DNA of 63,444 bases, the filler included, from Reclinomonas americana ATCC 50394 (taxonomy: Eukaryota), in assembly GCA_048213135.1 (NCBI GenBank). It is 15 parts of 15 records of this genome, joined end to end, with 100 filler letters (N's around TTAATTAATTAA, not from the genome) between each part and the next. Parts side by side here need not be neighbours in the genome. Positions count along the whole stretch, not along the records: positions 1 to 11,027 come from AFZH01017583.1; positions 11,128 to 13,612 come from AFZH01017585.1; positions 13,713 to 18,631 come from AFZH01017586.1; positions 18,732 to 24,609 come from AFZH01017589.1; positions 24,710 to 29,291 come from AFZH01017590.1; positions 29,392 to 32,065 come from AFZH01017591.1; positions 32,166 to 34,548 come from AFZH01017592.1; positions 34,649 to 45,853 come from AFZH01017593.1; 7 more parts are not named here. The stretch is one strand, 5' to 3'. A program made the position numbers and the translations under genes. Of this stretch, positions 1,529 to 63,276 are shown piece by piece; the first letter of the stretch is position 1, and every line of letters starts with the position of its first letter. Under the pieces are notes generated by a model. It was not told the DNA's origin. It did not search any database and saw nothing but the letters and a program-made list of their open reading frames with translations.

Positions 1529-4500
1529 ATGAGTGACACTGGCGAAGAGTTCTTCCTCGCTGTGCTGCGCTACCTGCGACGATCAGGTCAGTACGAGAGA
1601 GAGACAGGAAGACACAGAGAGGCACGCGCGCAGAGAGAGAGAGAATCGTAGTTTGTCTTGCGCTGTTATAAGGAATGGGTGTCAGTGCACTTTTTCTGAT
1701 CGCGGGTTTGGCCGCAGACAAGGAGATCGCATCGGGAGCAAAGCCGTTCCCCGTTGTCACCAGTCGACTGCGTACGCTCAATGCAAAGTTGAAGGCGTTT
1801 GCCAGGGATCCGGAAGCAGGTGATTGCTCTCTCTTTTCTGTGACTGCTCACTGTCTCATCCCTCTCTCTCTGCCTGCTCCCTTACTCCTCCTCGCATTGA
1901 GACGATCGCCTGACATCAGTTTGTTGTCAACATGCACAGTCTCTCTCACAAACGCATTCCATCCTTCCTCTTCTTCTCGCTGAGCCTTCTCACTGTCTCA
2001 TTCATCTCTCTTCCTGCTCCCTTGCTCCTCCCTGCGTTCAGCACGTGGCTTGACATCAGTCTTGCTGTGTCTCTCTATCGCTGAGTCAAATTCGATCCAT
2101 TACTCCTCTGCGCCTGCTCACTGTCTCATCCCTCTCCCTCTGCCTCCTCCCTTGCTACTCCTCGCATTGAGACGATCGCTCAGTTTGTTCTCAACCTGCA
2201 CAGTCTCTCTCACAATCATGCCATCTTTCCTTTTCTTTTCTCTGTGCCTTCACTGTCTCATTCATCTCTTTGCCTGTTCCCTTGCTCCTCCCTGCGTTCA
2301 GCACGTGGCTTGACATCAGTTCGTTGTCATCTTTCTGTGTGTCTCTCTCTCTCACAAACACGCACTCGTTCCATCGCTCCCTTTCTCTCTCTGTGTGTGT
2401 GTGTCTCTCTCTCTCTGTCTCTCTCTCTCTCTCTGTGCCTTGTCACTGTCTCATCCCTCTCTCTGCCTGCTCCCTTACTCCTCCTTGCGCTGAGGTCGTG
2501 GCTTGACATCAGTCTTGCTGTGTCTCTCTGTCGCTGAGTCAAACTCGATCCATCACTCCCTGCTGTTCCGTCTCTCCTCTGTGCCTTCTAACTGTCTCAT
2601 CCCTCTCTCTGCCTGCTCCGTTGCTCCTCTTTATTGAGGCGATTGCTTGCCTCCACTCTTCTGTCTGTCTGTCGTTCCATTACTCCTCGCTCTCCTTTCA
2701 TCCTCTCCCTCTCCACCCTACTCCCCACTCACTCACATCTCTTTCTTTCTCCAGCCGAGAACCCAATGCAGGAGCAGATCTTCGCGGAGCTGATTGGCTT
2801 CTTTCGCAAGGTCCACACGTTGAGAGTTTCGTCTCCCTATTTCCCCCTCCCTCCCTCTCCCTCCTCCCCTTCCCACACCCACCCCCACCTCTGCAGATCG
2901 AGCAAGACGAGGACTACCAGGTCGACATTGATCTGATGCTGTTCACGGCGCTGCGAGAGTTGCAGATCAACAAGTGCCACGTGTTTTTCGTGTCGAATCC
3001 GCCGTCGTACCTGCATCGGCTGGTGTGCTCGGAGGGCGGGCGCATCACGTTGACCAAGTTTGCGCGAGTCGAGGAGATTGTGGTGGTGGACTGTCCTGGG
3101 TTTCCGTGGGCCGAGGCGCAGCACCTGGCTCCGTGTCTGCGCGTAATGGAGGTGCACATGAGTGTGTCGGCCTTGTCGGAGATTTTCACCGACCAGGATC
3201 GCAGCACGTGCGTCGCTCTCTTGTTTTCTCTCTCACATTCCTGTTCTTGTTGACACACTCGCGCACAGATTATGGAGGTCACTGGCCGTGTTGAATCTCT
3301 CGAGGAACTCGCTGACGGTGGTCGACGACACGCTGCAGCAGTTGCCGTCGCTGGAGTTTCTCGACCTGTCGTCGAATCAGCTGGAGGTCATGGACCACAT
3401 GGAGTGCCTGGCGAATCTGGTGGTGCTGAAGCTGTCGAACAACCGGCTGCAGAGTCTGCGCGAGAGTCTCGCTCGTCTGCTGCCGACGCAGCTGGCGCGC
3501 TTGACGGCGCTCTCGTTGAAAAACAACGCCATGCGGACGACGTCGGGCTTTGAGAAGCTGGCCAGTTTGCGCAAGCTTAATCTGTCGAGCAACCGCCTCG
3601 AGTCGTGGCAGGAGGTGGAGCGACTGGCCGTGCTGGAGGACTTGCAGGAGCTGCGCATGATCGGCAACCCACTCTCGCGTGACCCTTACTTTCGACACAA
3701 GTTGCATTCCATTTTTGTGGCCCATCCACGGGTGAGTTTTGTGTGCATGACCTTGACCATCTTCGCGGGAGTGCTAAAGCCCTTGTGTGCCTGCTGCAGT
3801 TGGTCGTCGACAAGATGCCGTGGACCTTGCAAGAGACGCAAGTGCCCGACGACGACTGGAAACAACATGGCCCACCAGGCACACCCGGCACCCCGGCTGC
3901 CGGCGGCGCCGGCGCCCCCGTGTCGCCGAGCAAGAGCTCTGGAAAGAAGAGTGCGCGCTCCAGTGCGCGGGTCAACCCGGAGGACGTGATGAATCTGCGA
4001 ATGGATGCCGCCGTGGTCGTGGAGCCCGTGCGGAAGACCAAGAAGAAGACCAAGAAGAAGACAGTTGCGTTTGCGTTGTACACTGCCACAAAAATGCTGT
4101 GGTCTCACGTGTTATGCAGGTGAACTTGGAGGGCGACGATGTGGACGGTGAGGCATCGCCGGTGGCCACACCAAAGAGGAAGAAAGTGAAGAAGAAGAAG
4201 GTGGTTCGCGCGACCGGACTGGAAGAGGGCGGCGTCGGCGAGGATGGTGACGGTGAGGCGGCGCCGGTGGCGGAGAAAGTGGTGCCGTACTGCCATCCAT
4301 CGCCACCCCGTGCTACTCCACCACCACCTCCTCCACCGCCAGCACCAGTGGAGAAGGTGGTGCCGTACTGTCACCCATCACCGCCTCGTGCTACGCCGCC
4401 GAGTGCGCGGCCGCTGTCAATGCCCGCCGGTGTTCCCTTGTCGGCCAGTCCTTACAATTCGGTGTCGGCGGGTGTCGTCAGCCCGCGTGGAGCTGCGCCC

Positions 4501-18749: not shown

Positions 18750-18830
<81 letters not shown>

Positions 18831-19008: not shown

Positions 19009-22000
19009 ATGGCGAGTGGAAGCGCAGCGCATGAGTTTCGTGTCACAGTAACATCTGACGCCTTCTTCTCTCTTCTCTCTCTCCGCTGTGTCTCTCTCGT
19101 CATGTATACACATACACACACACTCTCTCTCTCTCACGTGTTTCCGCACCTCACACTCCTCTCATGCAGTTCCCAGGGATGGATCGATTTTGTGGGAGCC
19201 GTTATGCGACTGTGCACTCGCGCATTGCAGTGCAAAGTGGAGCAGGTGGTGCCGGCGTTTGTCGACTCATACTTGAGCGACGGAGTGAACCATGTGCGCG
19301 AGTGGCTGAAGTCGCCAGCGGAGAGAGATGTGCGGTAAGTCTCTTTCTCTTTCTCTCTCTCTCTCTCTCTTCTCTTTCTCTCTTTTTGTATCTCATCCGC
19401 TCTCTTCTGCTGCTTCTGCGACTTACTTCCATCTCTCTTTGGTTTTCGCAGCACCATGCCCGACGGAGAGGGCGCATACGTGCAGCTGTCGGAGGCAGAT
19501 CGCGAGATCATGAGCCGTTGGCGATGCGGAGTGGATGACTGCCGATCATTCAGCACCTCGCTGTGCTTCTCGGTTCTCCTCAACGCTGGTCACCGAGATC
19601 ACTCGCGAGCGGCACCGGACTGGCTGCTGCCTCTTGACAGCGACGTGGTGTGTTTGGTCAAGCTGCTCTGCGCTCTCCATGCTTATTCATCACCTGACTG
19701 ACGGCGCATCGTGTTCGCAGAGGGCGGCCATTGCGCGACTTCGAGAAGTGTTCGACTTGTTGTCGCGAGAGGCGCACGAGATCCTTCCGTCTCTGCTTGG
19801 ACGAGGTGTGCAAGAGGGCGAGTTGCACGAATTGATCCGCCGATTGCTGGTGGGTCGGGACGAGACCGAGGAGCTTCTGCAGCAACTCAATGATGCACGA
19901 GATGGTGCGTTTGTGCAATGTGATGCTCTTCCTCAGCTTGCTTGTTGTGCCGAGTGTGACAATTCTGTTCATCGCGGTGCAGGTGCTTCTGGCCCGCCTG
20001 CATCGTCATCCTCGACTGCAGTGGTCAATCTTGTACCGGAGCGCACGCAGCCGGTTTCCCCGTTGGTTGCACGCACAATCAATCCCGTCGAGACATTCCG
20101 CTTTCCAAGTCGTCGTGCTCAAGCAGAGCAACTGGCGTCACGAATTGTGACGGCTCTTGATGGTAAGACCACCAGTGTCTCTATCACGTGTGATATGAGG
20201 GACTCCTCGCCTCACTGTGTCCGTGCAGCCAACAAACGCACGGTTGTGGTGGTGACGGGGGCGGGTGGCAGTGGCAAGTCATTTTTGGCCGAGCTGATTG
20301 TGACGGAGATGCTGGCGACACAATCGTGGGACGGGTCGGCAGTGTCGGTGGAGATGCGCGGTCATGTCGGTGATCCGAGTGAGCATACACAGGTGCGATT
20401 GCACGTGTGTGTCAGCGACTGTCAGATGATTTCTGACATCATTCATTCTTCTATGCCGCAGCCTGTGCGTGATCTGGAAGTGTGTCTGCGTGCATTTGTT
20501 GCCGAGCAGATGCGAGTGGATGCCGGCGCGGGTGGACGGATGGCGAGTCAGGTGGATGCACTGGTGGCTGGTGGTGAAGTCACCCCGATGCATCGTCGAG
20601 TGCGGCAGCTGATGGAGGCATCCCGTGGTGTGCTGGTGCTGGACAATGGGGGGTCTCTGGAGCAAGTGCGCAGTGTCATTCGTGATGTCGGTGGAGCCGA
20701 TCGAGGTTAGATGTGCGCCGTTCTCTTGTTCTCTCTCTGCTCGCCTGATGCTGATCGTGTGATTGTAGGTTCGCGTGATGGACTTGTTGCGCCAGTGGTG
20801 ATTGTCACCAGCCGACACGGTCAGCTAGCGAGTCAACTGCGGGACTCGCTGAGTCACTTGGCGTCGGTGGAGTGTGTGCGACTCACTGATGTGGAGAACG
20901 ACGACATTGTGGAGTTGGTGGAGGATCAACTTGGCGATTGCGTGTCGGCTGATGTGCGGCAGCAGATTGAACGAGCGGTGTCGAGTGGTCAGTGCAGTGC
21001 GCTGCAAGTGAGTGCATGTCTTGGGTGAGTGATGTGTCGAGTGCGTGATGCTGAGGAGACTTGCGTTGGTCATCAACCTTTGCGTTTTATTGTGTCGCAC
21101 AGATGGCTGCTCACGCGGTCGCCCGTTGAGCTGGTTGGTGTTGAGCTTGAGGAAGTATTGCAAATGATAAGCAATGACGCGCTGCCGGATCTGCTGGCGC
21201 GCAATGTGCTGTCGCAGTCAAGTGCCGCACGACGGATGCTGGTGTCGATGACGGCATGCAAGGAACTCGGATTAACTGTGACGCCTGCTCTGTTGCGAGT
21301 GTGTAGTTGCATTTTTGCGAGTATCCCCGACATAGCTGTTGGCGAAGCAGAATCGGCGGGAGAGGCTGCTGAGGTGCGGAGGGCGAGAGAGTTGTTGGAG
21401 GATGAGGAGATGTCGAGTCGGTTCGTGGAGTTGGGAGATTGTGTGCGACGGGTGCGCATACACGTGAGGGCGAAGGAGCGGCGGCAGAGGGCACCCGATT
21501 TTGTGGGCGCAGAGCGACAGTTTGAGGAGATGGATGCAGTGCAGGAAAGGGATGTGTGTTCTCGAATGCATCGTCTGCTCCGCGGTGACAGTGGCGACGT
21601 GGTGGACGCGGATGGTGTGATGATGGCGTTGTGCAATGCGAATCTGGTGACGGTGAGTCAAACGGCGAGCATGAACAGTGTGGCGCGAGTGCTTCTCTGT
21701 GAGCCTGATGAGAGTGAGCATGTGGAGTATCGAGTGCACGACGAGATCAGCGGATGGATTGCTCGCACAGCTGGTCTTGTGGTGGCGCGAGCGCAGACTG
21801 CTGTATGTCGGCTGCTGTGTTGCATGCTCGTTGCGATCGACCCTGTTTTTGACAGTGAGAGCGTATTGTTGGTTTTGCGAGATGTGCTTGGTGTGTTGGA
21901 AATACTGTGGCGGCGACTGGCGACTTGTGATGCAATGTGGGATGGGGTTGGAGTGCAGACGCACATGCTACAGTGTCTTGCCGTAGAGTGGCTGGCATGG

Positions 22001-24388: not shown

Positions 24389-24710
24389 GTGAGTGGCTGG
24401 GGAGGGATCGCGTTTCTTCGATTTCGGAACAACTTTCTTGCCTTGCCTCCGACTTCGTCTTCCCCATCGTCTTCCCCCATTATCTTCCCCCATCGTCTTC
24501 CCCCATCGTCTTCCCCCCTTTGTCTTTCCCCGTTTGTCTTTCCCCATCGTCTTCCCCCTTCCGTCTTCCCCCTTCCGTCTTCCCCCTTCCGTCTTCCCCC
24601 TTCGGTCTTNNNNNNNNNNNNNNNNNNNNNNNNNNNNNNNNNNNNNNNNNNNNTTAATTAATTAANNNNNNNNNNNNNNNNNNNNNNNNNNNNNNNNNNN
24701 NNNNNNNNNG

Positions 24711-28627: not shown

Positions 28628-33967
<5,340 letters not shown>

Positions 33968-34048: not shown

Positions 34049-36207
34049 ATGTCTGCGCGCGCGGCTCGTCGTCCTCCTGGTGGCAACGGTTCTGCGGTGG
34101 CTGAGCTGCTCAACCCTGTCAATGGTTACCGTGACTCGTTGGTGCGCAAGGGCGTTCAGCCAAAGGTGCGAGATGAGGATGAAAAAGGGTGTTTTGTGGG
34201 GGAAACGGACACTAATCGTGCATGTGTGTGTGTGTAGGATCACATGCGAGAGAACCGTCGTCGTCTTAATCAACTGCAGCAAGCGAGACGCGATGAAGTC
34301 GAGGCTGCAGAGTTGACACCAGTTGCGCTCACACACTCTCATCTCTCTTTCTCTCTCTTTCACACACTCTCTCTCTCTCTCTCTCTCTTTCACACTCTTA
34401 CTATCTCTTGTCCTCGATCGTTCCCCCTCTTGTTGATTGATGCTGTTCTTCTCCTCTTCCTCCTCCTTCTCGTTTCTAATTGTGTTCTCGTTCTCTTCTT
34501 CTCCTCCTCCTCCTCCTCCTTCTTCTTCTTCTTCTTCTTCTTCTTCTTNNNNNNNNNNNNNNNNNNNNNNNNNNNNNNNNNNNNNNNNNNNNTTAATTAA
34601 TTAANNNNNNNNNNNNNNNNNNNNNNNNNNNNNNNNNNNNNNNNNNNNGTTCTTCTTCTTCTTCTTCTTCTTCTTCACTCTTCCTTCATCTTGATCGTCT
34701 TCTTTTTCTTCTTCTTCCTTTCCTTGTTCTTCTTCTCCTCCTCCTCTTCCTCGTCGTCCTTCTTCTTCTTCTTCGTCTTGTTCTTCTTCTTCTCCTCCTC
34801 CTCCTCCTCCTCCTCGTCCTTCTTCTTCATCATCATCCTCTTCTCCGTCTTCTTCGTCCTCTTCTTCTTCTCCTTCTTCTTCCTCCTCCTCCTCCTCCTC
34901 CTCCTTCTTCTTCTTCTTCTTCTTCTTCTCCTTATTCCCTTCCTCCTCACCCCCTCTCCCTTTCATCCCTCCCTTCTCACTTCTCCCTTCTTCCCTTCCC
35001 CCTTCTTCCCTTCTCTCCCCTCCGCCCAGCCCGAGAAGAAATCCCAAAAGTACGCCAACGTGGAGTCTCGTGTGCGCCCGTTCATGGTCGAGTCGCCGGC
35101 GGCGGTGACCACCACGCAGCAAACATACGCCGACGACGAGGACGAGTCACCTGCGCCGGCTCCAGTGGCGCGCCAGAGCTCATTCTTGCGCGCACACAGC
35201 AAGGAGAACATGCCGGCGCCACCGCCACCGGGCGAGACGAGCACCATGGCCGCCGAGCGCATGCGCATCAAGCCGGCAGTGCCGACTGTGACGGAGCTTG
35301 TTGCGTGACATACACGAGGCTTGAATACTTGCCGTGTGCTAATTCGTGGTTTGTGTGCGCAGCGAGAGGCGGCAGAGGCGGCCATGGAGCAGCAAATGCA
35401 GCAGGTACCGAAAGACTATCTGCGAGAGAATGCCGTGGGTGCCAAGCTGCACAAGAAGCCGGATGCACCGCCCACACGCGCGGATATCATGAGTCGGCCG
35501 GCGCACAGGAAGGGCGAGGTGCCGGAATAGTTGCGGAGCTGAAGAGGAAGGATTGATGGGAGAAAGGAGAAGGTGCTCACTGTCTGTCTACGCGCAGCTT
35601 GCAACAGAGAAAAGGCGAATGGGCTCGTGAGGCCGAGGAGGAGCGCGAGCGACAGGAGCGGTCGCACATTCCGCCGGGCATGACACAGGTGCCGGAGGAT
35701 GAGAGAGTACAAACGCTGGGCATGTTGACGCAGAGTTGCGTGCAAGGGGAGGAAGAGTGAGATCGCACGTCCTGTTTCTCTTTCACCCGCTCTCTCTCTC
35801 TCTCCTTTCTGTGTTTTCCTTGTTGTGCGCCTGCCTGCGGTGTCACGTGGATTCTTTCCACTCTTCAGCTTTGTCTTCCTTCTCCTTCATCTTTTGCCTT
35901 TCCTCTCTCCTCCCTGTGTTTCCTCCTTGTGTTCCAACTCCACGAGTACCGACTCGGTCAACTGTGTCCTCTTTCGTCTTCTTCCTCTGCCTTGTCTGTG
36001 ATCTATTTACCTGCTTCCCGGCTGACTGACTCTCTCATTCACCATGCAGAGCGCGCCGAGGTGCTGCGAGAGATCGGTGCGCTGCCTATCACACACGAGA
36101 CTCTGCGCATTCGGAAACGTCGCCAGGAGTTGGAGTCGCAACTGGGCGAGGTGGATGCGGCCATTGAGATCTTTTCCCGGCGCGTGGTCTTTGTCGCCGA
36201 CAGCTAA
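34049..36207 (+). CDS. ENKD1: Enkurin domain-containing protein 1 (ciliary/centrosomal)
   Basis: PK|DHMRENRRRL...KYANVESRV...DYLRENA...GEVPEYLQQRKGEW...IPPGMTQVPEDERVQTL...LPITHETLRIRKRRQELESQLGEVDAAIEIFSRRVVFV matches the ENKD1 N-terminal motif and the enkurin domain. Confidence 0.88.
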
Positions 36208-36606: not shown

Positions 36607-37551
36607 ATGCGTGTCTACTCCAGCGTCGCTCTCGTCGCGGTTGTCCTCTTAGTTGCCTGTGGCGCTGTCATGCGCTCTGCGAGTTGCGTCTCCGAGTTTA
36701 CGTGTGTGCGTGTGTGTGCGCGCGCGCGCGCGCGCGCGCTGGCCATGGCCTGCATATTCACGGATGCTGTCCTTGTCATTCTCCCTCTGTCGCCTGCAGA
36801 CGCGCAGACAGTGACCACTGCGGTTGCCAGTAGCATCACTGGCGCCGCTGGCACTTTGAATGCATTGGTCAATGCCAACAATGTCGCGGGCGGTACCACG
36901 AACTCGTTCGAGTGGTCTCCCTATGCCGCCGCCCTTGGCACCTCGTCAGCCACTGTGTCCACATTCGTGGGCACCGCTGGCTCGTCGGGAACTACGAACG
37001 CTGTGGGGGCAAGTGCGCGACTGAATACGCCAATGGTGAGCGTCGTCTGCTGAATGTTACATTGCCTGTGCCTTTTCCCAAACACTCACCTTGTTTCTCC
37101 TCGCAGGGACTGGCCTTCGACGGCACAGGCAACTTGTATGTGGGCGACTATGGGTTTGTTTTGCATTCCATCTGTCGATTGCATGTTCGCTCTCTTTCTT
37201 GCTCACTCTTTGCGTGACGATGACAGTAACTGTAGCATTAGACGTGTCACCCCAGCAGCGACAGTGACAACCTTTGCGGGTGGCACATGCGGCCTTGTGA
37301 ACGGCACAGGAGTGGCAGCTCAGTTCAAGAAGTGCGTCTTGTCTCTCTCACTTTCCCTTCTCCCTCATTCTCTCTTCACCAACAAGCGGGCACACAGTGT
37401 TGCCGGTCTGGCCATTGACCAGAGCACGGGCACCATGTATGTCGCCGACGTAAGTGTGCTGCGTGCGTGAGTGATCTCTGTGGAGCCCGAGGCGTGTGCT
37501 GACGTTCTCTCTCTATCACTCTCTCTCTCTCTCTGTCTCTCTCTGTCTCTG

Positions 37552-37585
<34 letters not shown>

Positions 37586-40500
37586 TCTTTCCTGTCACAG
37601 TTGATGAACCACGCGGTGCGCGCCGTGACCACCGCCGCCGTGGTCACCACGCTGGCGGGAAACGGCGCATCGGGAAGTGCCAATGGCACGGGTGCTGCGG
37701 CGTCCTTCAATCAGCCCATGGGCATCGTGGTGGACTCCGCGAACCAAGTGGTGTATGTGGCCGACTGGCTCAACAGCACCGTGCGGCGAGTGACCTATGC
37801 GGGCGTGGTGACGACATTCTGTGGCACGATGGGCTCGAGTGGCATGGAGGATGGTGCATGTGTGGGAACGGCGCGATTCAGTGGTCCCAATGGCCTGCTT
37901 CTTGTCGGAACGACGCTGTACGTTGGTGAGCTGCACTCTCTTCCAATCAACTTGCATCGATCTCTTCTCATGTTTGTGTGTGGGGCAGTGGATCGCGTGA
38001 ACCACTCGATTCGGGCCATCAACACGCTGGCAATGACGGTGTCGACAGTGGCGGGGTCGACGAGTGGTGTGACTGGATCGCTGGATGGCGTCGGTGAGTT
38101 CGTTTGCTTGCTTACCAGCATGCAGGCACATGTTGGTCTCATTCAGTTGGTAAACAGGAATTGCCGCTCGCTTCAACACGCCGGTGGGGATCGCTTACGA
38201 TGCCGGAAACAATGTCATCTACATTACCGATGTTGAGTATCGTATCTCCTCACCCACATGGTGCCGATGTTATCGCCTCGTGCGTCTGAGTTCGCCTCTC
38301 ACAGTCTGCCAACAACACTGTTCGACAAATGCGAGTATCGGACTCGACAGTGAGCACCATCGGCGGCGCGGCAGGTGTGAGTGGCTCAGCCAATGGCAGC
38401 GCGCTGACCACGGCACGCTTCAACTCGCCTCTGTTCATCGCCTTTGACGCGTCGACCGCATCGATGGTGGTGACCGACTTCAACACCCACATTGTCCGTC
38501 GCCTCTCGCTGGCGTCGCAGTCGGTGTCGGCCATACCCACCACCGCCACTGGCTCTGTCGCCACTTCAATCACCGCTTCGCTGAGTGGGTTGGTGAACAA
38601 CTGGACGTTCTACTATCGCGCCGTCGGCACCACCTCGACGCCCAGCACCATCAATGGTGCCACCTCCTCGTTCACTACCGCCACCAATGTGGCGCCGACC
38701 AACATCACCTGCTCACCGACGACGTATGCTTCGCCATCGGTGGCGAACCAAGTCGTGTGCACGCTGCAGACGACGGACAGCAACGCAGGCCAGTCGTTCA
38801 CGTACTCGATTGTCGGTGGTGCGAACAGCGCCGTGTTTTCGATCAGCGGGCAGTCGCTGGTGATTGTGGCGGCGGGCCAGTCAGGCAGCCCGCTGGCGGT
38901 GACGATTCGGTCGACAGATGATGGATCACCGGCGTTGTTTTTCGACAAGGCGTTCACCATCACCACAGGTGTGTGATGACAGATCTCCTTTTCCCGCTCC
39001 CTTCTTCGTTTTTTTCTCCTTCTTCGCTTTCCTCTTCCTTCCCCTCCTTCCTCTTTATCTGTCTCTTTTCCCCATTTTCTCCAACTCGTCCATGCTCATT
39101 GACCGTATACCTCACTTTGTGGTCTTGTGTGTATTGCAGCCACTCAATCGCTGGCCACACTGGCACCAAGTAGTGTGACGACCTCGTCGGCGACACTGAA
39201 TGCTCTGGTGGGCAACAGTGTGGCCGCCTCAACTGTGAGCAACTCGTTTGAGTGGGCGCCGACATCGGCTGCACTCGGTGTTACATCAACGGTATCAACG
39301 TGGCTCGGCACGGCTGGCATGTCGGGTTCGACAGATGGCACAGGGGCTGCTGCGCGTTTCTGGAATCCAATGGTTTGTTTATGGGTTGCAGGCTTGTCCT
39401 GCTGATGCTGCTGCTGCACTCACACGCAGATGTAGTGCGTCGCAGTCGGTGCTTCCGGCACTGTGTTTGTGTGCGACCAGTTCAATCACACGATCAGACG
39501 CGTGACGAGTGGCGGTGTTGTGACGACAGTTGCCGGAACAGTGGGTGTCGCAGGATTCGTCGATGGGGTCGGCGCCTCGGCGCAGTTCAATCGTCCTGGT
39601 GACATGGCAGTGGATCCGGTAACTGGATACTTGTACATTGCTGATGTTGCGTGTTGGTTCTGCCAAGAGTGAGGCGTCTCTGTTAACTCATTCGCTTCGC
39701 TCTCCAGCACTTCAACCACTCGATTCGTGTGTGCACTGCGTCCGGCTCTGTTTCAACTCTCGCTGGTGATGGGACGCAAGGCACTTCGGATGGCACTGGG
39801 TCGAGCGCAAGATTCTTCCGTCCGCATGGTGTCGTTGTTGATGCAGTCAACAAAGTGGCGTACATTGGAGACATGAACAACGCCGCTGTCAGGAAGGTGT
39901 GTAGGCTGATTAACGCTCTGTTCTCGAGAATGATTGAGTAATCTGTTGTGTTTGTGTTTCGAAGGTCACTTATGGTGGTGAGGTCACCACCTACTGTGGT
40001 ACGATTGGGTCGTCGGCGACAGTTGATGGGCCATGTGCAACGACAGCAAGATTCGGTTCACCGATGGGCATGGCTCTGGACACGACGGCCAACATGCTGT
40101 ACGTCGGTGTGTTGTATCCTCTGGTGATCAGTGATGTGTTTGGGATCCGCACCCACTCCGTGGGTGTTTGAACAGCCAATCGGAATCACCACAATATCCG
40201 CGCCATTGATATGGTGGGCATGACTGTGTCCACTCTGGCCGGCTCGCTCACGGCGGCAACTGGGTCAACAGATGCCGTCGGGACGGCGGCCCTGTTCAAC
40301 CTAGCGGTCAGTGTCCAGCTGGATCGCGGACGAGGAGTTCTTTACGTGTCGGATGTTGCGTGTGTCGGAGTACGTTTCATAATGGCATGGACCTTTTTTG
40401 TAACACGGCACACAGGCCCTCAACAGTACCATTCGTCAAATTGTGATCGGTACCGGTGCTGTCACGACTATTGCTGGCGCTGCTGGAGTATTATCGACAG

Positions 40501-51600: not shown

Positions 51601-54600
51601 CGCTTGCGAGCGAATCAGCGTAATCTCAGCCGCCAGTGCGTCCCTCTCCGCCGCCAACTTGCGAATGCGACCGTCGCTCTCCGCCGCCTGATCCTCGCGC
51701 TTCACAAACTCGTGCTGCAAGCAAGTCACAGGTGAGTCTGTGCAACCTTCACCACCCTCTCTCTCTCTTCCCTNNNNNNNNNNNNNNNNNNNNNNNNNNN
51801 NNNNNNNNNNNNNNNNNTTAATTAATTAANNNNNNNNNNNNNNNNNNNNNNNNNNNNNNNNNNNNNNNNNNNNGCGCGACTGATGCGCATCGTACTCGGT
51901 CTCCAGCGCCTCAATGCGGCGGCGAGCCACCGCCAAGTCGTCCTCCAAACCGGCCACATGCATCGACTGGTGCTCGCTCTGCTCCGTCAACTCGTGCTCA
52001 CGCTGCGTCATGTCCAGCAACTCCTGCTGCACCGTCAACAGCGTGGCCTGCACCGACTCGCGCGCCGCACCCGACTCGTACAGCTGCTGCTGCAGTTCGC
52101 CAATGCGCGACTCGTAGGCCTGTGCCAACAGTGCCACCGAGGCCTTGTCGCTGCTGTCGGTGGCAGCCGTGGCCTGCTCCAGATGCGAGCGCGTCTCGTG
52201 CAACTCGTCAGCCAGCCGCGCCGCCTCCGCCCGCGACGCATCGGCGTCGGCCTGCAGCGCGTTCACCTGTTGCCGCAAATTCGACAACTCGTGCAGCTGC
52301 GAATCAATCGTCGAGTCGCGAGCGCGCAGTGACTCGGCGTTCTCACGTGCGGCATTCTGCGCCTGCTCCCGCTGATCGCGCAACTCGGATTGCAGCTGTT
52401 GTTTGGGAAGGGGGTCGAGAAGAGATTGAGGTGTCAGCATGAGATGAACGCAGATCTCTGCATCACCCTCTGCCATACCTTGTTCTTCTGATCGCGCAGC
52501 TGCTCCACCGTCTCCATCATCGACTGCAGGTCGCCACGAAGCACAGTGAGCTCGGCCGCTTGCGAGTTGAGCAGCGAGTCCTTTTGGCGCATCACCGAGT
52601 CGCGATCGTACGCATCGGTGACGGCGCGGCTTGAATTCTCACGCTCGCGACTCAATTGCGCCTCGTAGTCGGTGACCAGAGCCGCCATCTCGCCCTTCAG
52701 CGACTTGATGTTGGCGGTCAGATCGGACACTTGTACGCGCAAAGTGTTGTTGTCCTCGTTGTAGCGATCCGACTCCAAACGCAGCACGCGCAGCTCCTGC
52801 TGCACCGCATTCAGTTCACCAGCGGCCGGTGCGTGACGACCCGTCAGCGTCTCCAGCTGCTTCTCCAAGTCGTTGATGCGCTCCTGCAGCGCCGCCGAGT
52901 CGGCACCGGACTCTTGGAGGACGCGATTCTCCTCGCGGATCTCCTCCAGTTGCGACTCCAGACGCGCTCTTTCCTGTTCGAGTGCCTGCGTGATGTGTGA
53001 GTGCATCAGCTAATGAAAAGAAGACACACACAACTCTCGCTCTCCTCGTCTCTTCTCTCACGCACACATTCTCTCTCTCTTCATCCCTTTCTCTGTCTAC
53101 CTCTCTCTTTCTCCCTCTCTCTCTCACACACACGCTCTCTCTTTTCATCCCTCTCTCTATCGCTCTCTGTATGTGTGTGCGTGTGTCACACCTCCACTTG
53201 CTGCTCCAACTCATAGATGCGCTGCTCGAGGAAGGCGGTGCGCGAGTTGGTATCCGACCGGCTGTCGATCCAGTAGTTGGGCACGGGGCAGTTGCGAATG
53301 CGCTGCGCCCGTGAGGCGTACACCAGATTGTTGTGCGTCTCCGAGGCCTGCTCCGGGTCGGCGCCCACACACGTCACCATCAGCGTGCGGCAATTGCCAC
53401 CGAACGAGTGGTGCAGGAGGGAGGTGAGTTTTGAGTCGCGGTACGGGATTTGTGCCGGTTGCACGTTGCCGCCCTGCGCCAGTGCCAGAATGACGCGCGA
53501 GAGCACGAGAAGGTCCTTGTTGTTGCGGCTGTGAGAGGAGCCTGTGGAAGGGGGGAAGGGGGAGGGGGAAGGGGGAAGGGTGAGGGGAGAGAGAGGGGAG
53601 AGAGAGGGGGAAAGGAGGGGGAGAAGTGCAAGGGGGGAAAGGGCAGAGGGGGAAGAGGGAAAGGGGAGGAGAAAGAAGGGGAAGAGCAAAGGGGGAAGAG
53701 CAAAGGGGGAAGAGCAAAGGGGGAAGAGCAAAGGGGGAAGAGCAAAGGGGGAAGAGCAAGGGGGAAGAGCCAAAGAATAGAGATAGAGAGAGAGAGAGAG
53801 AAAGGGGGGAGCAAAAGGGGAAGAGCTAAGGGGGAGAGAAGGAAAAGAACAAGGGGGGAGAGGAATGGGGAAGAGCAAAGAAGGAAGAGCAAAGGGGAAC
53901 AGAGAGGGGGAAGAGCAAAGGGGGAAGTGGAAAAGGAGAAAAGAAGGGGGGAAGAGCATGGAGGGAAGAGTAAAGGGGGAAAGGGGCAAGGGGAAGGAAT
54001 GGCGAAGATAAAGAGGGAAAGGCGGAGGGGGAAGAGCAGAGGGGGGAAGAGCAAGCAGGAAGACGAAGGGGGAAGAGCAGAGGGGAAGAGCGCGGGGGAA
54101 GAGAATGGGCGAGAGCAAAGGGGGAGGAGCAAGGGAAAAGAGCAAGGAGGAAGAGCAAAGGGGAAAGAGTTGAGGGGGAAGAGAAAAGGGGGGAGAGTTG
54201 AGGGGGAAGAGCATGGGAGAAGAGCGCAGGAAAAGAACAGGGGGGAATAGCACAGGAAAAAGAGCAAGGAGAAGAACAAAGGGGAGAAGAGGAAAGGAGG
54301 GAAGAGAACGGGCGACGGACAAGGGGGAAAGAGCAAACGGGAAGAGAAAGGGGGAAGAGCGAAGGGGGAAGAGCAGAGTACAAGCATAACACATGAGACC
54401 GCATTTCACCATCCTCGCTTTCGTGGTCTCTTCCCCGTTCGCTCTTCCCCTTTCCTCTTCCCATACTGAGGGAGTGTCGGTAGCTCGAGAGAAAGCCTCT
54501 CTGACGAGGGGGANNNNNNNNNNNNNNNNNNNNNNNNNNNNNNNNNNNNNNNNNNNNTTAATTAATTAANNNNNNNNNNNNNNNNNNNNNNNNNNNNNNN

Positions 54601-55451
54601 NNNNNNNNNNNNNCAAGAAGAGCCCACTGACGCAGATCTCGAACAGCTGCGGTGGAATGTCCTTCACGTGGGAAACAGCGAGTGAGCGACAAGGGAGGGA
54701 ATCAGCACTTGCCACGCGCGCGAACTGCGACTACCTCCACGATATCAAAGAGGCGCTGCAAGACGCGCGGGAACATGCCCGCATCCGGACCCTCCGGCGC
54801 ACCAAACAGCGTGTACTAGAATGCCACACAGACACGTCATAACAAGACACGACAGCAGAGACAAGTCGTCACATTGTGCGCAACTGTCTTGCCCGTGCGC
54901 TCATGTCCATACGAGAACAACGTGCAGTTCTTGCCCGCGGCAAAGTCCACCACCATCGGCTCCACACATCGATGGAAGAAGGCGCTCTGTGTGCGCGTGC
55001 ACACGCGTGCGTGTCATTTTCGTTCATGTCCACACACACTCTGTGACGCATCACTCCTGTGCTTTCTTTCTGTTCTTACAAACCTGTGAGGCATTCTCGC
55101 CAAAGACATAGGCAAAGCGGAAGCTCTCGTCATTCGGCACCGAGACGTGCACCTGAAAGCGGGAAAGACGGTTAAATTTTCAGTTGCACACTTTGGTCGG
55201 CACTCTCTCGTTATGTCACTCTCTTTCTCATTCACCTCTGAGGGCGATAACACATGCACGTGCGAGTTCACAGGCGACGAGGCAGGTGCCACGCGAACAG
55301 CAACATCAAATTCGTTGGTGGCCACTGATTGAGTCGGAGAACCTCCTGAGGATGCAGGCGAGGAGTGCGATGTTGTCACTGGCAGGGCCAGAGGAGGCAC
55401 AGTGGCGGCCGCTGACGCAGAGTCAGTGTCGCCAGTGCTGCCTGCGCTCAT
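47682..55451 (-). CDS. Divergent kinesin-like protein: N-terminal motor domain, very long coiled coil, Ser-rich tail
   Basis: FDVAVRVAP...FRFAYVFGENASQ...NCTLFSYGHERTGKT|YTLFG....GMFPRVLQRLF; IPYRDSKLTSLLHHSFGGNCRTLMVTCV....ETHNNLVYASRAQRIRN; more than 900 aa of heptad-rich exons. Spans three gaps and the middle of the motor domain is missing. Confidence 0.85.
53545..54375. repeat. Intronic purine/pyrimidine minisatellite (GGGGGAAGAGCAAA)n
   Basis: 14-mer in perfect tandem at about 53680-53770, degenerate around it. Confidence 0.9.
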
Positions 55452-55850
55452 TGTGTGGTGATTGTGGGGTGGGGACAATGGACAGTTCGGCGGCGGGGAG
55501 CGAGTGCCATTGTCCTACACCAAAAGAAAGCAAGCACTTGAGTCAAAAATGCAGTCCGCACAAAATAATATAGAATGCTCGGGCGTTGCAGTGCGCTTCA
55601 GATCAGAGGCCGACGATGCTGACTTCGACGCCGACGTCGACGTCTGCACTCCAGAAAATTTGCAATCTTTGCTGCCACTGCTAGCTCGCCATTGCACGCA
55701 TGTTCTCCCCTGCTCCCCTACTCGCCTTGCACCACTCGCTCTCCTCCAATCCCGTGTCCTCTCGAAGTCCATGTCCGAAATCTCCAATAGGCAAAAGTTA
55801 TCGTCAAGCAGTCGCGCGAGACCTCTCATCTCCCCTCAACAAACATCGCG
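55452..55850. promoter_or_regulatory. Putative bidirectional promoter between the two divergent kinesin genes
   Basis: 399 bp between ATG 55451 (-) and ATG 55851 (+). Inferred from position only. Confidence 0.45.
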
Positions 55851-59380
<3,530 letters not shown>

Positions 59381-60236: not shown

Positions 60237-60267
<31 letters not shown>

Positions 60268-60511: not shown

Positions 60512-60542
<31 letters not shown>

Positions 60543-60697: not shown

Positions 60698-63276
60698 AAC
60701 GAATCCACCAACGTGATGGAGTCGGAGGAGAACGAATTGGTCCGCGGTCGCCTCGTGCAGATCGACGAGGACTCACTTCGTGATTTCGACGACTCGGTGA
60801 GTTGCTCTTCCATTTTCGCCGCCTCCTCTTCTCCCTTGCCTCACTTGTGCCACTCTCCAGGCCATTGTGTTGACTGGAACTGTGGCCAGCGAGGAGGTGG
60901 CGAGAGCAATTGCTTCAAGAGGCGTCACGCTGCGGTGCGTAATCTGGTAGCTCTCCCTCTCCCTCTCCCTCTCACTCTCCCTCTCTTCCCTCGCCCTCTC
61001 CTCACACTCACCACCCCCAGCGCCGTCCACCGCCTGTACGCCGTCGCCGACTCGATCGACTCGCTCGTAGAACAATTGCAACGCGACACGACCTTTGTTG
61101 CGTCCGTTCCCCCATCACCGCACCCTATCCCCACCACCTCACCTCCTTCCCCCTTTCCCGCAGGCCAACGGCATGCCCGACGACGACGAACCCTCGGACG
61201 GCGGCTACTCCCTCACCTTCGACTCATTTCACCGGTACTTCACCAAGGAGGACGTGGCGCGCCTCTACGAGCAATTCGAACCCGTCTACTTCCCCGGCCG
61301 CGCCAACCTCAAGTCACCGCGTCATCGCTTCTCGGTGCTGATTGACGGCCCGCGCTCCCGCTACTACTTTTGCAAGTTGATTGCGGAGAGTGACCGGCAA
61401 TCTGTTGTCAAGTTCTCGTTGAAGAAGCGGCCGTACATTGGTACGACCAGCATGGATGCGGAGCTGGCGCTTCTCATGTCCATCTCGGGACTGGTGCGAC
61501 CGAATTACTTGGTGCTGGATCCGTTTGTCGGCACTGGGAGTGTGTTGATTGCGGCCGCGCATCACGGCGCCATGGTGATGGGTGCGGAGTTGGATGGTCG
61601 TGTGTTGAAGGGCACTGTGGGCGAGCGCAAGGGTCGCTCCATTCTCGACAATCATCGCCATGTTGCGTGCGAGGGGGGATAAGGGCAAGAGCTACCCCTA
61701 CTGCTTTCTCCTTTCTCCATTTCCCTTCTTTTCCCCTAATACTTACGCCTTCTCTTTCCCCCGCTTGCCCCCATTCTACTTCTCCTTTCGCCTTCTTCTT
61801 TTCCTTTCCCAAGTTCCTTCCCTCATCCTTTCGCCACTCTCTTTCCTCCCTGCTTGTCCTCTCCATTCTACATCTTCATTCGCCTTCCTCCCTTTCCTCT
61901 CCCTTTTTCCATTCTCTCTTTTCCTTACGCCCTCTCGTTCCCCTCACTTGCCCTCCTCATTCTACATCTTCATCCGCCTTCCTTCCCTCTCCCTTTTTCC
62001 ATTCTCTCTTTTCCTTACGCCCTCTCGTTCCCCTCACTTGCCCTCCTCATTCTACTTCTCCATTCGCCTTCCTCCCTTTCCTCTCCCTTTCCCCTCCCTC
62101 TCTCTCTTTTCCTTTCGCCACTCACTTTCCTCCCCCGCTTGCTCTCCCTTTCCTCTCCCTTTCCTCTCCCCCATTTCCTCTCCCTTTCCTCTCCCCCATT
62201 TCCTTTCGCCACTCACTTTCCTCTCTCGCTTGCCCTCCCCATTCTACTTCTCCTTTCGCCTTCCCCCTTCCCTCTCCCCTTTCCCCTCTCTCGTTTCCTT
62301 TTGCCACTCACTGTCTTCTCCCACTTGCCCTCCCATTCTACATCTCCTTTCGCCTCCCCCTCCCTCGTTTCCTTTCGCCACTCACTTTCCTCCCCCGCTT
62401 GCCCTCCCCTTCTACTTCCCCTTTCCCTTCCTCCCTTTTCCTTTCGCCACTCTCATTTCTTGCCACGTGCGCAGTACGGTCTGCCACCACCGCTGGACCT
62501 GCTTGTCAACGACGCCTCGCAATGCATGTGGCGGCAGCATTCGTGTGAGATGTTTGATGCGATTGTCACCGATCCACCGTACGGTGTGCGTGAAATGTCG
62601 AAAAAGGTGGGCAAGAAGGGCCGCGAGATTGAGGACTCCGTGCGCGATACGTTGTTGCGTTCGACCCCTTCCCCCTCCCCCCCTCTCCCCCATTGGTCGC
62701 TGATCGCCACCCAGCTGGAAGTCCGGCAAGCACATTCCCCAGAAGGTCATGTACACGCTGGACAGAATACTTGAGGATCTGCTGACGCTCGGCGCCCGCA
62801 CATTGCGTGTCGGCGGTCGTCTCGTGTTCTGGGTACCGTCCACCCCCGAGTTCCACATCAATATGCTGCCGGAGCACGAGGGCATGCGTCTCGTCTCTGT
62901 GTGCGAGCAGTCACTGTCGGAGCGCTACGGCAGACACTTGGTGACAATGGAGAAGACCAAGGCGTGGGATGAGGTGGTGCGTGGTTCGCGGTGGCGACTG
63001 TCTTTTCTTGTTTGACTGTGAATCCTCAAACTTTTCTGGCCACAGGAACACCGCGGCGCCACGTGGGTGGGCGACGAGCACGAAACAAGGCAGTTGTTGC
63101 TCACCAAGTTCCGCGAAGCGTACTATCTGCCGGTGCGCGCCGCTCGTCGCGAGTTTCACCAGAAGCGCAAGGAGGCGTATTTTGCACACATGGCGGCGTC
63201 GGCGGCCGCGAAGACGGCGGCAGCAGAGGCGGGCGATGCCAGTGGTTCGGGAGACAAGGTTGCTGGATCGGAATGA
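60698..63276 (+). CDS. TRMT11: tRNA (guanine-10-N2)-methyltransferase Trm11 (first exon not identified)
   Basis: FSLKKRPYIGTTSMDAELALLM, LVLDPFVGTGS (SAM motif I), FDAIVTDPPYGVRE, LRVGGRLVFWVP, EQSLS...RHLVTMEK. Confidence 0.92.
61700..62455. repeat. Intronic pyrimidine-rich degenerate tandem repeat (CTTGCCCTCC(C/T)CATTCTAC.TCT...TTCGCC)
   Basis: The core recurs about 8 times in the long TRMT11 intron. Confidence 0.8.

What the first reader, a model, noticed from the sequence alone, without database searches (positions are those of the whole stretch)
4064..62660. A second, common class of 5' splice site, N|GTTGCG(T): the GTGCGT consensus shifted by +1 and used only after a non-G exon end
Seen: many introns start with GTG(C/A)GT-type donors, but reading-frame continuity places donors at GTTGCG at 4064, 7875, 8388, 10528(-), 28637, 35300, 35530, 35735, 36683, 39646, 40355, 44165, 46525, 54884(-), 55890, 57419, 59128, 61662 and 62654, and probably 56765. 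These lack the normally near-invariant +5 G, having C+5, G+6 and usually T+7. In all 19 listed cases the last exonic base is not G (11 A, 7 T, 1 C). At 35530 (GAA TA|GT, ENKD1 EY) and 46525 (AAC TA|GT, cathepsin NYG) the cut must be at the GT, because using the in-frame GC 3 nt downstream would leave a TAG stop. Established: +1-shifted U1 pairing is known for rare human atypical donors of the ACA/GUUAAGU type (Roca and Krainer). Inference: here the shifted register is a routine, genome-wide donor class. That implies either tolerant or variant U1/U6 snRNAs, or a distinct recognition route in this lineage.
Basis: partly seen in the sequence, partly recalled or inferred. Interest (0 to 1): 0.8.

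Follow-up and report, generated by a model that had tools for sequence, protein, structure and literature searches.

The report
Second splice-donor class, W|GTTGCGT
In this unidentified flagellated protist about a third of the short introns examined start with GTTGCG(T) instead of the usual GTGNGT, which looks like the normal signal moved along by one base and would be an unusually common use of a recognition mode known only from rare human splice sites.

Summary
GTTGCG is present at all 20 listed sites. The heptamer GTTGCGT occurs 23 times against 9.9 expected, 22 of them on the + strand.

I placed 25 introns by protein family or internal paralogy, without using the donor motif. Of these, 9 start with GTTGCG and 1 with GTTGAG, although GTTGCG is only 1.0% of GT hexamers (P = 1.9e-12). 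Cleavage at N|GT is supported by:
- kinesin family alignments at 54884 and 57419;
- Enkurin profile continuity at 35735;
- TAG stops at 35530 and 46525;
- paralogous intron positions at 39646 and 40355.

The base before the cut is G in 13 of 15 ordinary donors and in 0 of 10 of this class (p = 2e-5). Read one base further on, these donors match the window's G|GTGCGT consensus as well as ordinary donors do (5.5 against 5.6 of 7).

Both classes share intron length, branch-like motif and CAG acceptor.

No RNA reads, genome or snRNA genes were available. The shifted-U1 mechanism and the genome-wide claim therefore remain inference. Five listed sites (8388, 28637, 36683, 55890, 56765) are not firmly placed.

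The parts
4064..4119 (+). Intron with A|GTTGCGT donor, 56 nt, CAG acceptor, phase 0
   Evidence: The open frame runs 127 codons upstream and 216 downstream, and read-through meets a stop after 19 codons.
7875..7945 (+). Intron with T|GTTGCGT donor, 71 nt, phase 1
   Evidence: 385 codons are open upstream. Gene-finder runs that gave no weight to the donor motif chose this site.
8388..8454 (+). Intron with A|GTTGCGT donor, 67 nt, phase 1; ambiguous
   Evidence: 90 codons are open upstream and 223 downstream. An in-phase alternative donor A|GTGCGG at 8364 uses the same acceptor.
10455..10528 (-). Intron with A|GTTGCGC donor in a VIT1-family gene, 74 nt, phase 1
   Evidence: tblastn of VIT1 homologs runs up to the donor. 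The next exon starts at Pfam VIT1 profile position 167. The anatomy was read.
28637..28724 (+). Putative intron with T|GTTGCGT donor, 88 nt; weak
   Evidence: Only 24 codons are open upstream in the fitting phase. No homology is available.
35300..35362 (+). Intron with T|GTTGCGT donor in the enkurin-domain gene, 63 nt, phase 0
   Evidence: 217 codons are open upstream, and read-through meets a stop after 2 codons.
35530..35597 (+). Intron with A|GTTGCGG donor, 68 nt, phase 2
   Evidence: TA plus G forms an in-frame TAG. The next exon begins at Enkurin profile position 7.
35735..36049 (+). Intron with A|GTTGCGT donor splitting the Enkurin domain, 315 nt, phase 1
   Evidence: The exon before it ends at Enkurin profile position 45 with 1 residue left over. 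The exon after it starts at profile position 50 with 2 residues before. Together with the split codon this gives 4 residues for 4 profile positions.
36683..36799 (+). Putative intron with A|GTTGCGT donor after the signal-peptide exon of the NHL-repeat gene, 117 nt
   Evidence: It is in frame and stop-free, so the frame does not require it. The donor, a (GC)n interior and a CAG acceptor are the only grounds.
38232..38304 (+). Intron with T|GTTGAGT donor (the A variant of the class), 73 nt, phase 0
   Evidence: The junction keeps the D-x-x-N spacing of the NHL repeat. The position is paralogous to the 40355 intron.
39646..39707 (+). Intron with T|GTTGCGT donor, 62 nt, phase 0
   Evidence: The junction keeps the D-x-x-N spacing. 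It has the same codon boundary as the paralogous ordinary intron C|GTAAGT at 37450.
40355..40415 (+). Intron with T|GTTGCGT donor, 61 nt, phase 0
   Evidence: The junction keeps the D-x-x-N spacing. It is paralogous to the 38232 intron.
42256..42328 (+).
   Evidence: The downstream anatomy is intron-like and the frames are compatible. No homology test was made.
44165..44239 (+). Intron with C|GTTGCGT donor before the ML-domain exon, 75 nt, phase 0
   Evidence: 189 codons are open upstream. A 25-codon exon follows and ends at G|GTAAGT. The ML domain was found.
46525..46599 (+). Intron with A|GTTGCGC donor in the cathepsin-like gene, 75 nt, phase 2
   Evidence: TA plus G forms an in-frame TAG. 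Splicing gives Y followed by GCQGG, as in papain-family chains.
54816..54884 (-). Intron with A|GTTGCGC donor right after the kinesin P-loop, 69 nt, phase 0
   Evidence: The junction GKT|YT is gapless against kinesins. The GT-cut model beats the GC+3 model in 83 of 85 homologs, with 2 ties.
55890..55979 (+). Putative intron with A|GTTGCGT donor near the start of the second kinesin gene, 90 nt
   Evidence: It is in frame and stop-free, so the frame does not require it. The branch-like motif and CAG acceptor are intron-like.
56765..56873 (+). Probable intron with A|GTTGCGT donor, 109 nt
   Evidence: Only the 109-nt option enters the frame that carries the Kinesin profile match. No exact junction test was made.
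57419..58400 (+). Intron with A|GTTGCGT donor in the second kinesin gene, 982 nt, rich in CT repeats, phase 0
   Evidence: The junction is gapless against kinesins. The GT-cut model beats the GC+3 model in 146 of 149 homologs, with 1 tie and 2 worse.
59128..59183 (+). Intron with A|GTTGCGT donor, 56 nt, phase 1
   Evidence: 114 codons are open upstream and 64 downstream. Gene-finder runs that gave no weight to the donor motif chose this site.
61097..61163 (+).
   Evidence: 296 codons are open upstream and 172 downstream, with a CAG acceptor.
61662..62474 (+). Intron with T|GTTGCGT donor in a Trm11-like methyltransferase gene, 813 nt, CT-rich, phase 0
   Evidence: The exon before matches TIGR01177 profile positions 118-220 and the exon after matches 235-264. 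The acceptor CAG lies at 62472-62474. The boundary itself is not tested to the residue.
62654..62714 (+). Intron with T|GTTGCGT donor, 61 nt, phase 2
   Evidence: 304 codons are open upstream and 99 downstream. The upstream exon carries the methyltransferase motif region.

Best explanation
These are ordinary spliceosomal GT-AG introns of one splicing system that accepts two kinds of 5' splice site.

- Class 1 is G|GTNNGT, mostly G|GTG(A/C/T)GT.
- Class 2 is W|GTTGCG(T), rarely GTTGAGT.

Class 2 is the class-1 seven-base word G-G-T-G-C-G-T with its second base changed to T. The only GT left is the one formed by the first two bases of the word. The cut therefore falls one base upstream of where the word would place it.

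The most likely mechanism is that U1 snRNA pairs with class-2 sites in a register shifted by one base. The intron's +1 G then takes the place of the usual -1 G, +2 U is the single mismatch, and +3 to +7 pair as +2 to +6 normally do. The catalytic steps then use the nearest GU.

Shown here: the class exists, it is common in the window, the cut is at N|GT, and the sequence relations fit the shift. Inferred: the snRNA pairing itself.
For: **Frequency.** 25 introns were placed without using the donor motif, in six genes: the NHL-repeat gene, the cathepsin-like gene, the enkurin-domain gene, two kinesin genes and VIT1. Of these, 9 have GTTGCG donors and 1 has GTTGAG. GTTGCG is 75 of 7438 GT hexamers in the window, giving a binomial P of 1.9e-12.

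**Cut at N|GT**
- At 54884, the model cut at the GT scores above the model cut at the GC three bases on in 83 of 85 kinesin homologs (2 ties, 0 worse).
- At 57419, it does so in 146 of 149 (1 tie, 2 worse). The best alignments are gapless across the junctions (PDB alignment).
- At 35735, four residues span four Enkurin profile positions.
- At 35530 and 46525, in-frame TAG stops forbid a later cut.
- The class-2 introns at 39646 and 40355 sit at the same codon boundary as their paralogues. These are an ordinary C|GTAAGT intron at 37450 and a T|GTTGAGT intron at 38232.

**Fit to the shift**
- Matches to GGTGCGT: class 2 scores 2.0 of 7 in the normal register and 5.5 of 7 shifted. Class 1 scores 5.6 in the normal register and 1.6 shifted.
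- -1 is G in 13 of 15 class-1 donors and 0 of 10 class-2 donors (p = 2e-5). Over all 38 curated introns it is 14 of 17 against 0 of 21 (p = 7e-8).
- The -1 base of class 2 (A6 T4) resembles the -2 base of class 1 (A7 T4 G2 C2).
- Class 2 has C at the variable position in 9 of 10 donors, against 4 of 15 in class 1 (p = 0.0036). This is expected if one mismatch must be offset by full pairing elsewhere.

**Same machinery.** The median intron length is 70 against 69 nt. The branch-like CTCAC / CTCAT / CTGAC motif lies 11-27 nt from the 3' end in both classes, and both use a CAG acceptor.

**Precedent.** Shifted and bulged U1 registers have been shown experimentally for rare human sites (passages of PMC4856993; review PMC9311317).
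Against: - No RNA evidence: no RNA run was listed, so no junction is seen directly.
- No U1 or U6 gene could be examined. The window has none and no genome is held. The pairing is therefore untested, and which class is 'normal' for this organism's U1 is unknown.
- The sample is one 63-kb window: 25 firmly placed introns in six genes.
- Five listed sites are not firmly placed: 8388, 28637, 36683, 55890 and 56765.
- Automated frame-based tests did not separate GTTGCG from other GT words. In one search, 14 of 120 GTTG[AC]G sites passed against 931 of 7449 of all GT. In one search, 16 of 75 passed against 1053 of 7449. The case therefore rests on curated junctions.
- T at -1 (4 of 10) has no obvious pairing partner if U1 resembles the human one.
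- How U6 would read +4 to +6 (GCG) is unexplained.
Confidence: 0.5

Rival explanations
1. The organism has two U1 snRNA species. The second has a 5' end complementary to W|GUUGCGU in the normal register, so each donor class has its own U1.
For: Two sharply separate donor classes occur with few intermediates. A diplonemid carries a second U1 gene with a different 5' end (PMC12621601, passages read). Human variant U1 snRNAs exist (listings).
Against: The class-2 word differs from the class-1 word at a single position, which a single U1 can explain. No snRNA gene could be examined. Both classes share branch motif, acceptor and intron length.
Confidence: 0.2
2. A single U1 pairs in the normal register at +1 and +2, with one U (+2 or +3) bulged out and the rest pairing one base along. 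This is a bulge register, not a shift.
For: Bulge +2/+3 and +3 registers are validated for human sites (Table 3 and Figure 1 legend of PMC4856993). The intron sequence alone fits this as well as it fits the shift.
Against: In a bulge register the -1 base still faces the U1 base that prefers G. Class 2 should then keep G at -1 as class 1 does (13 of 15), but it has 0 of 10, or 0 of 21 over all curated introns.
Confidence: 0.12
3. Recognition of class-2 donors does not rest on U1 pairing. A protein factor or U6/U5 contacts read W|GUUGCGU directly, or these introns form a distinct, minor-like route.
For: +5 is C, whereas every class-1 donor placed here has G at +5. The motif is unusually uniform: 16 of 21 donors carry the full TGCGT core.
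Against: The donors do not resemble those of the minor (U12-type) spliceosome, judged from recalled knowledge of that motif. The branch-like motif, acceptor and length are the same as in class 1. The one-base relation to the class-1 word would be a coincidence.
Confidence: 0.08
4. The class is an artefact of reading. The true cut lies elsewhere: at the GC 3 nt on, after the G (a TT start), or at the GT at +6. Alternatively, many sites are not introns.
For: There is no RNA evidence. Two listed introns (36683, 55890) are in frame and stop-free, and 8388 has an in-phase alternative. Automated frame tests were not discriminating.
Against: - The GC+3 cut is rejected at 54884 and 57419, at 35735, and by TAG stops at 35530 and 46525.
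- A cut after the G would also leave a TAG at 46525. At 54884 it would replace the Y that kinesins have after GKT.
- A cut at +6 would leave GTTGC in the exon in all three phases. Four of the 20 listed sites have no T at +7.
- The strand bias of 22 to 1 and the excess over shuffles need a function.
Confidence: 0.05

Closest known systems
Human atypical 5' splice sites recognised by U1 in a +1-shifted register (Roca and Krainer 2009, cited as reference 10 in PMC4856993 and reference 66 in PMC9311317; the original paper was not held)
   Same: Both have a GU start followed by an extra U. Both match the consensus poorly in the normal register and well one base along. In both, cleavage is at the GU and not where the pairing would place it.
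   Different: In humans these are rare exceptions that were validated one by one. Here the class makes up 10 of 25 independently placed introns. It has its own tight consensus W|GTTGCGT and a strict absence of G at -1. No pairing experiment or snRNA sequence exists for this organism.
Bulge and asymmetric-loop registers of human U1:5'ss helices (Roca et al. 2012; Tan et al. 2016, PMC4856993, passages read)
   Same: Both are noncanonical registers in which positions beyond +6 contribute. A loss of +5 G pairing in the normal register is made up further downstream.
   Different: The curated human list holds 4270 predicted sites in all registers, with bulge +2/+3 accounting for 54 of them (Table 3). 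Here a single register-like class is common, and its lack of -1 G argues against a bulge.
Lineage-specific strict donors such as GTGCG(T/C) in Ostreococcus (Irimia and Roy 2008, known to me only through earlier scan notes e1-560454 and e1-562521; paper not read)
   Same: Both concern short introns with a GTGCGT-type donor and a strong branch motif in a GC-rich protist genome.
   Different: Those notes describe a single uniform donor. Here a second, displaced donor word coexists with it.
Alternative U1 snRNA with a changed 5' end in the diplonemid S. specki (PMC12621601, passages read)
   Same: It is a protist in which unusual donor sequences may be served by a changed U1 5' end.
   Different: The donors named in the passage read (for three of the six species) are (G)/GTATG, and the two hemistasiid species are described as G-rich. 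The strings GTTG and GUUG do not occur in that text.

Membership tests
U2-type (major) GT-AG spliceosomal introns | The intron starts with GT and ends with AG, and its removal restores the reading frame or protein continuity. | tested here: met
   All 25 homology-placed introns and all 38 curated introns start with GT and end with AG (asserted in the scripts). Continuity was shown by kinesin alignments, Enkurin profile positions and the NHL repeat spacing.
U2-type (major) GT-AG spliceosomal introns | A branch-point-like motif lies upstream of a pyrimidine-AG acceptor. | tested here: met
   A YTNAY motif, mostly CTCAC, CTCAT or CTGAC, was found 8-45 nt from the 3' end in 30 of 38 curated introns. 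It occurs in both classes. The acceptor is CAG in nearly all.
U2-type (major) GT-AG spliceosomal introns | Spliced junctions are observed in RNA. | not testable with these tools
   No RNA run was listed.
Shifted-register 5' splice sites (Roca and Krainer type) | The site matches the consensus poorly in the normal register and well one base downstream. | tested here: met
   Matches are 2.0 of 7 in the normal register against 5.5 of 7 shifted. They were measured against the window's own consensus GGTGCGT, not against a U1 sequence.
Shifted-register 5' splice sites (Roca and Krainer type) | Cleavage is at the GU upstream of the position implied by the pairing. | tested here: met
   Protein-level junction tests were made at 54884, 57419 and 35735. 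TAG stops apply at 35530 and 46525.
Shifted-register 5' splice sites (Roca and Krainer type) | The U1 5' end is complementary in the shifted register, and mutants are rescued by register-specific suppressor U1. | not testable with these tools
   There is no snRNA gene in the window and no genome is held.
GC-AG introns | Cleavage is in front of a GC dinucleotide. | tested here: not met
   The in-frame GC at +4 was tested as the cut. It was worse than the GT cut in 83 of 85 and 146 of 149 kinesin comparisons. It is impossible at 35530 and 46525 because a TAG would be kept.
U12-type (minor) introns | A long invariant donor and a branch box of the minor type. | tested here: not met
   The donor is GTTGCG(T). 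The branch-like motif is the same short CTCAC type as in class 1. The minor-type motifs themselves are recalled, not taken from a call.
Introner-like mobile introns | The introns share sequence along their length or at their ends. | tested here: not met
   An all-against-all blastn of the 21 class-2 intron interiors gave only matches of 8-16 nt, mostly in low-complexity sequence.

The most novel reading that the evidence does not exclude
In this lineage, recognition of the 5' splice site in a register one base off is a constitutive mode serving about a third of all introns, not a rare rescue. It has its own selected consensus W|GTTGCGT. This would mean that the site U1 marks and the bond that is cut are routinely uncoupled, or that a second U1 (and perhaps an adapted U6) has evolved to serve a second donor code.
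Probability: 0.45. Interest if true: 0.75.

Novelty: new variant of a known kind. Interest (0 to 1): 0.62.

Why it matters
Donor sites lacking +5 G that are read one base out of register are known as rare curiosities of human genes. A genome in which they form a large, uniform class would be a natural system for three questions:
- how far U1 pairing and the choice of the cleaved bond can be separated;
- how U6 copes with such sites;
- how snRNAs and splice signals co-evolve.

It also matters in practice. Gene finders trained on one donor model would misplace or miss about a third of the introns in this organism.

Tried and rejected
**Data that were not available**
- RNA evidence: no RNA holder was listed for 35000-44900.
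- Whole genome: none is held.
- Earlier scan notes on this genome: none.
- snRNA genes: Rfam found nothing in the window at gathering thresholds.

**Organism identity: not established**
- VIT1 relatives reach only 39-53% identity. The named sources are a bicosoecid and Trypanosoma rangeli.
- The LRR search was uninformative and a kinesin exon found nothing.
- Names of the top kinesin representatives point nowhere: arachnid, beetle, Paramecium, Chara.

**Self-written gene finders and frame tests: weak**
- With a flat donor score, GTTGCG was the commonest donor hexamer in 5 of 41 and 4 of 19 predicted introns.
- Training the acceptor model ran away into GA repeats.
- Generic open-frame tests passed 12-14% of all GT sites, so they could not discriminate.

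I gave that up and worked from coordinates instead.

**Alternative cuts rejected:** a GC donor at +4, a cut after the G, and the GT at +6.

**Other tests with negative or weak results**
- Introner origin is rejected.
- GTTGAGT as a common variant is not supported. It occurs 12 times against 10.5 expected, and 4 of the 12 lie in one tandem repeat. Only 38232 is a placed donor.
- The PDB comparison for the cathepsin junction was too weak to fix the residue.
- Pfam and NCBIfam support the exon order of the methyltransferase gene but not the exact 61662 boundary.

**Literature**
- Full-text searches for GTTGCG or GUUGCG together with intron or splice terms found nothing relevant.
- The diplonemid splice-site paper does not contain the motif.
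- Roca and Krainer 2009 and Roca et al. 2012 are not held.

Full report
**Material.**
- The window is a eukaryotic scaffold of about 15 short contigs, with roughly 58% G+C.
- The contigs are joined by 14 identical linkers, each 44 N, a 12-base all-frame stop word, then 44 N.
- Genes continue across linkers. The cathepsin-like gene crosses 45854-45953 and a kinesin gene crosses 54514-54613, so the order of the contigs is real.
- No whole genome is held and no RNA run was listed. The scan had no earlier notes on this genome, and the window contains no Rfam family.
- The organism could not be named. The best named relatives of its VIT1 protein are only 39-53% identical, and two further protein searches gave nothing useful.
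- It has enkurin-domain and kinesin genes and many short introns.

**The motif.**
- GTTGCG is present at all 20 listed places. The preceding base is A at 12, T at 7, C at 1 and G at none. Position +7 is T in 16 of 20.
- The window holds 75 GTTGCG, 46 on + and 29 on -.
- The heptamer GTTGCGT occurs 23 times, 22 of them on the + strand where most genes lie. Shuffles give 9.86 ± 2.88, and none of 100 reached 23.
- The 55 unlisted GTTGCG look like background. Their -1 base is A17 G14 T13 C11 and their +7 base is A20 C16 G12 T7.
- Of the seven unlisted GTTGCGT:
  - 61097 is a clear donor, with 296 codons open upstream, a 67-nt intron and 172 codons open downstream;
  - 42256 is a probable donor;
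  - 15477 (preceded by G) lies inside a long open frame;
  - 27323 (preceded by G) lies in T-rich non-coding sequence;
  - 12049, 18285 and 47365(-) were left unclassified.

**Anatomy downstream.**
- For 19 donors (18 of the 20 listed, plus 61097) a frame-compatible CAG or TAG acceptor was chosen.
- 17 of these acceptors lie 56-90 nt downstream. The other two lie at 117 nt (36683) and 315 nt (35735).
- A short CTCAC / CTCAT / CTGAC / CTAAY motif lies 11-27 nt before most of these acceptors.

**Automated tests were weak, and I report them as such.**
- Two small gene finders of my own gave no weight to the donor sequence. They made GTTGCG the commonest donor hexamer: 5 of 41 and 4 of 19 predicted introns. 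Their predictions were otherwise noisy.
- Training the acceptor model drifted into GA repeats.
- Generic tests asking for open frames on both sides passed 12-14% of all GT sites. GTTG[AC]G passed at 14 of 120 and GTTGCG at 16 of 75. This gives no useful discrimination in such G+C-rich DNA.

**Introns placed without the donor motif.** I therefore placed introns by protein family or by internal paralogy.

- *NHL-repeat gene (36.6-42.1 kb).*
  - It has an internal duplication, and its repeats keep a fixed D-x-x-N-x-x-I-R spacing.
  - This fixes 13 junctions.
- *Cathepsin-like gene.*
  - The active-site and GC-x-GG regions fix four junctions.
  - I read these directly, with weak support.
- *Enkurin-domain gene.*
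  - The exon before the 35735 intron matches profile positions 7-45 with one residue left over.
  - The exon after it matches positions 50-91 with two residues before.
  - With the split codon, that gives four residues for four profile positions.
- *Kinesin on the - strand.*
  - A read-through query aligns its P-loop to PDB kinesins, whose next residues are Y-T.
  - The next exon begins with exactly those residues.
- *Second kinesin on the + strand*.
  - The 57419 donor follows the conserved G-G-x-x-R-T.
  - The next exon lies 982 nt away, beyond a CT-repeat tract.

**Testing the position of the cut.**
- I compared two models against 150 kinesin representatives fetched.
- The model cut at N|GT scored above the model cut at the in-frame GC three bases on:
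  - in 83 of 85 homologs at 54884 (2 ties);
  - in 146 of 149 at 57419 (1 tie, 2 worse).
- The best alignments are gapless across both junctions.
- At 35530 and 46525 the two last exon bases plus the G make TAG, so no later cut is possible.
- At 10528(-) the VIT1 match runs up to the donor and resumes at profile position 167 at the first residue after the acceptor.

**Paralogous positions.**
- The class-2 intron at 39646 sits at the same codon boundary, after the D of the repeat in phase 0, as the ordinary intron at 37450 (C|GTAAGT) in the other copy of the duplication.
- The class-2 intron at 40355 corresponds to 38232, whose donor is T|GTTGAGT.
- So the two classes are interchangeable at one intron position, and GTTGAGT is a rare variant of the class.

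**Counts on the 25 introns placed in this way.**
- 15 have ordinary donors: GTGCGT, GTGAGT/C, GTGTGT, GTTTGT, GTAAGT and GTAAGG. Ten have GTTG(C/A)G, nine of them GTTGCG.
- GTTGCG is 75 of 7438 GT hexamers (1.0%), so nine of 25 has a binomial probability of 1.9e-12.
- The base before the cut is G in 13 of 15 ordinary donors and in 0 of 10 of the new class (Fisher p = 2e-5).
- With the 13 further introns supported only by long open frames, the figures are 14 of 17 against 0 of 21 (p = 7e-8).
- Against the seven-base word GGTGCGT:
  - ordinary donors match 5.6 positions in the normal register and 1.6 when slid by one;
  - the new class matches 2.0 in the normal register and 5.5 when slid by one.
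- The -1 base of the new class (A6 T4) resembles the -2 base of ordinary donors (A7 T4 G2 C2).
- The variable position of the core is C in 9 of 10 class-2 donors against 4 of 15 ordinary donors (p = 0.0036). This is as expected if a site with one built-in mismatch needs full pairing elsewhere.
- Both classes have the same median intron length (70 and 69 nt), branch-like motif and acceptor.
- The class-2 introns share no sequence beyond 8-16-nt low-complexity matches, so they are not copies of a mobile intron.

**Interpretation.**
- The class is real in this window and the cut is at N|GT.
- The word is the ordinary seven-base word with its second base changed from G to T. The only usable GT then starts one base earlier.
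- The lack of G at -1 is then no separate rule. The G that ordinary donors keep at -1 is here the first base of the intron.
- This argues for a shifted pairing rather than a bulged one, since a bulge register would still favour G at -1.
- Shifted and bulged U1 registers have been demonstrated for rare human sites (PMC4856993, passages and Table 3 read; PMC9311317, passages read). The curated human list contains 4270 predicted sites over all such registers.
- A class that makes up 10 of 25 introns would be far commoner than that.
- Whether one U1 does this, or a second U1 with a matching 5' end exists, cannot be decided without the snRNA genes. A second U1 has been reported for one diplonemid (PMC12621601, outline and passages read).
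- How U6 reads +4 to +6 of these sites is open.

**Limits.**
- The evidence comes from one window, six genes and no RNA.
- Five listed sites are not firmly placed:
  - 36683 and 55890 are in frame and stop-free;
  - 8388 has an in-phase alternative donor at 8364;
  - 28637 has weak flanks;
  - 56765 needs the 109-nt acceptor, not the first one.
- 61662 is supported by exon order on a methyltransferase profile and by a good acceptor at 62474, but not to the residue.

**Prior publication.**
- Two full-text searches for the motif together with intron terms found nothing relevant.
- Figures, logos and supplements of genome papers were not searched.
- Because the organism is unknown, a prior description cannot be excluded.
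- The scan's earlier notes record strict GTGCG(T/C) donors in Ostreococcus but no displaced class.

Noticed in passing
window 11028-11127 and 13 further places: Fourteen identical linkers (44 N, a 12-base all-frame stop word, 44 N) cut the window into 15 contigs of 1.2-11 kb. Genes run on across them, so they stand for scaffold gaps, often inside repeat-rich introns.
   Followed up: partly
window 24710-25080: A tandem repeat of 111 nt, 3.4 copies at 93% identity, starts at a contig edge. Each copy carries GTTGAGT, which inflates the count of that word.
   Followed up: partly
window 37154, 39373, 55083(-): G|GTTTGT recurs as an ordinary donor in three of the 15 class-1 introns. It has T at +3 and +4 but keeps +5 G and +6 T.
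   Followed up: partly
window 57419-58400 and 61662-62474: Two class-2 introns are 982 and 813 nt long, against a median of about 70 nt. Both are filled with CT/GA microsatellite-like sequence that stays open in several frames.
   Followed up: partly
window 36.6-42.1 kb, + strand: A large secreted NHL-repeat gene has an internal duplication of about 2.3 kb. Each copy ends in a long exon with no Pfam match. Intron positions are partly shared between the copies, and some introns are present in one copy only.
   Followed up: partly
window 50178-55200 (-) and 55790-58682 (+): Two divergent kinesin genes lie head to head. Both have unusual P-loops (G-H-E-R-T-G-K-T and G-S-R-K-S-G-K-T). The first has a long coiled-coil tail, and its motor middle falls in a gap and CT-rich tract.
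   Followed up: partly
window 19514-23209, + strand: Two long intron-free open frames of 398 and 727 aa have weak STAND NTPase matches and strong TPR_10/TPR_12 matches. This contrasts with the intron-dense neighbouring genes.
   Followed up: no
window 8364 and 8388: Two in-phase candidate donors lie 24 nt apart (A|GTGCGG and A|GTTGCGT) and share one acceptor. They may be a tandem alternative donor pair.
   Followed up: no
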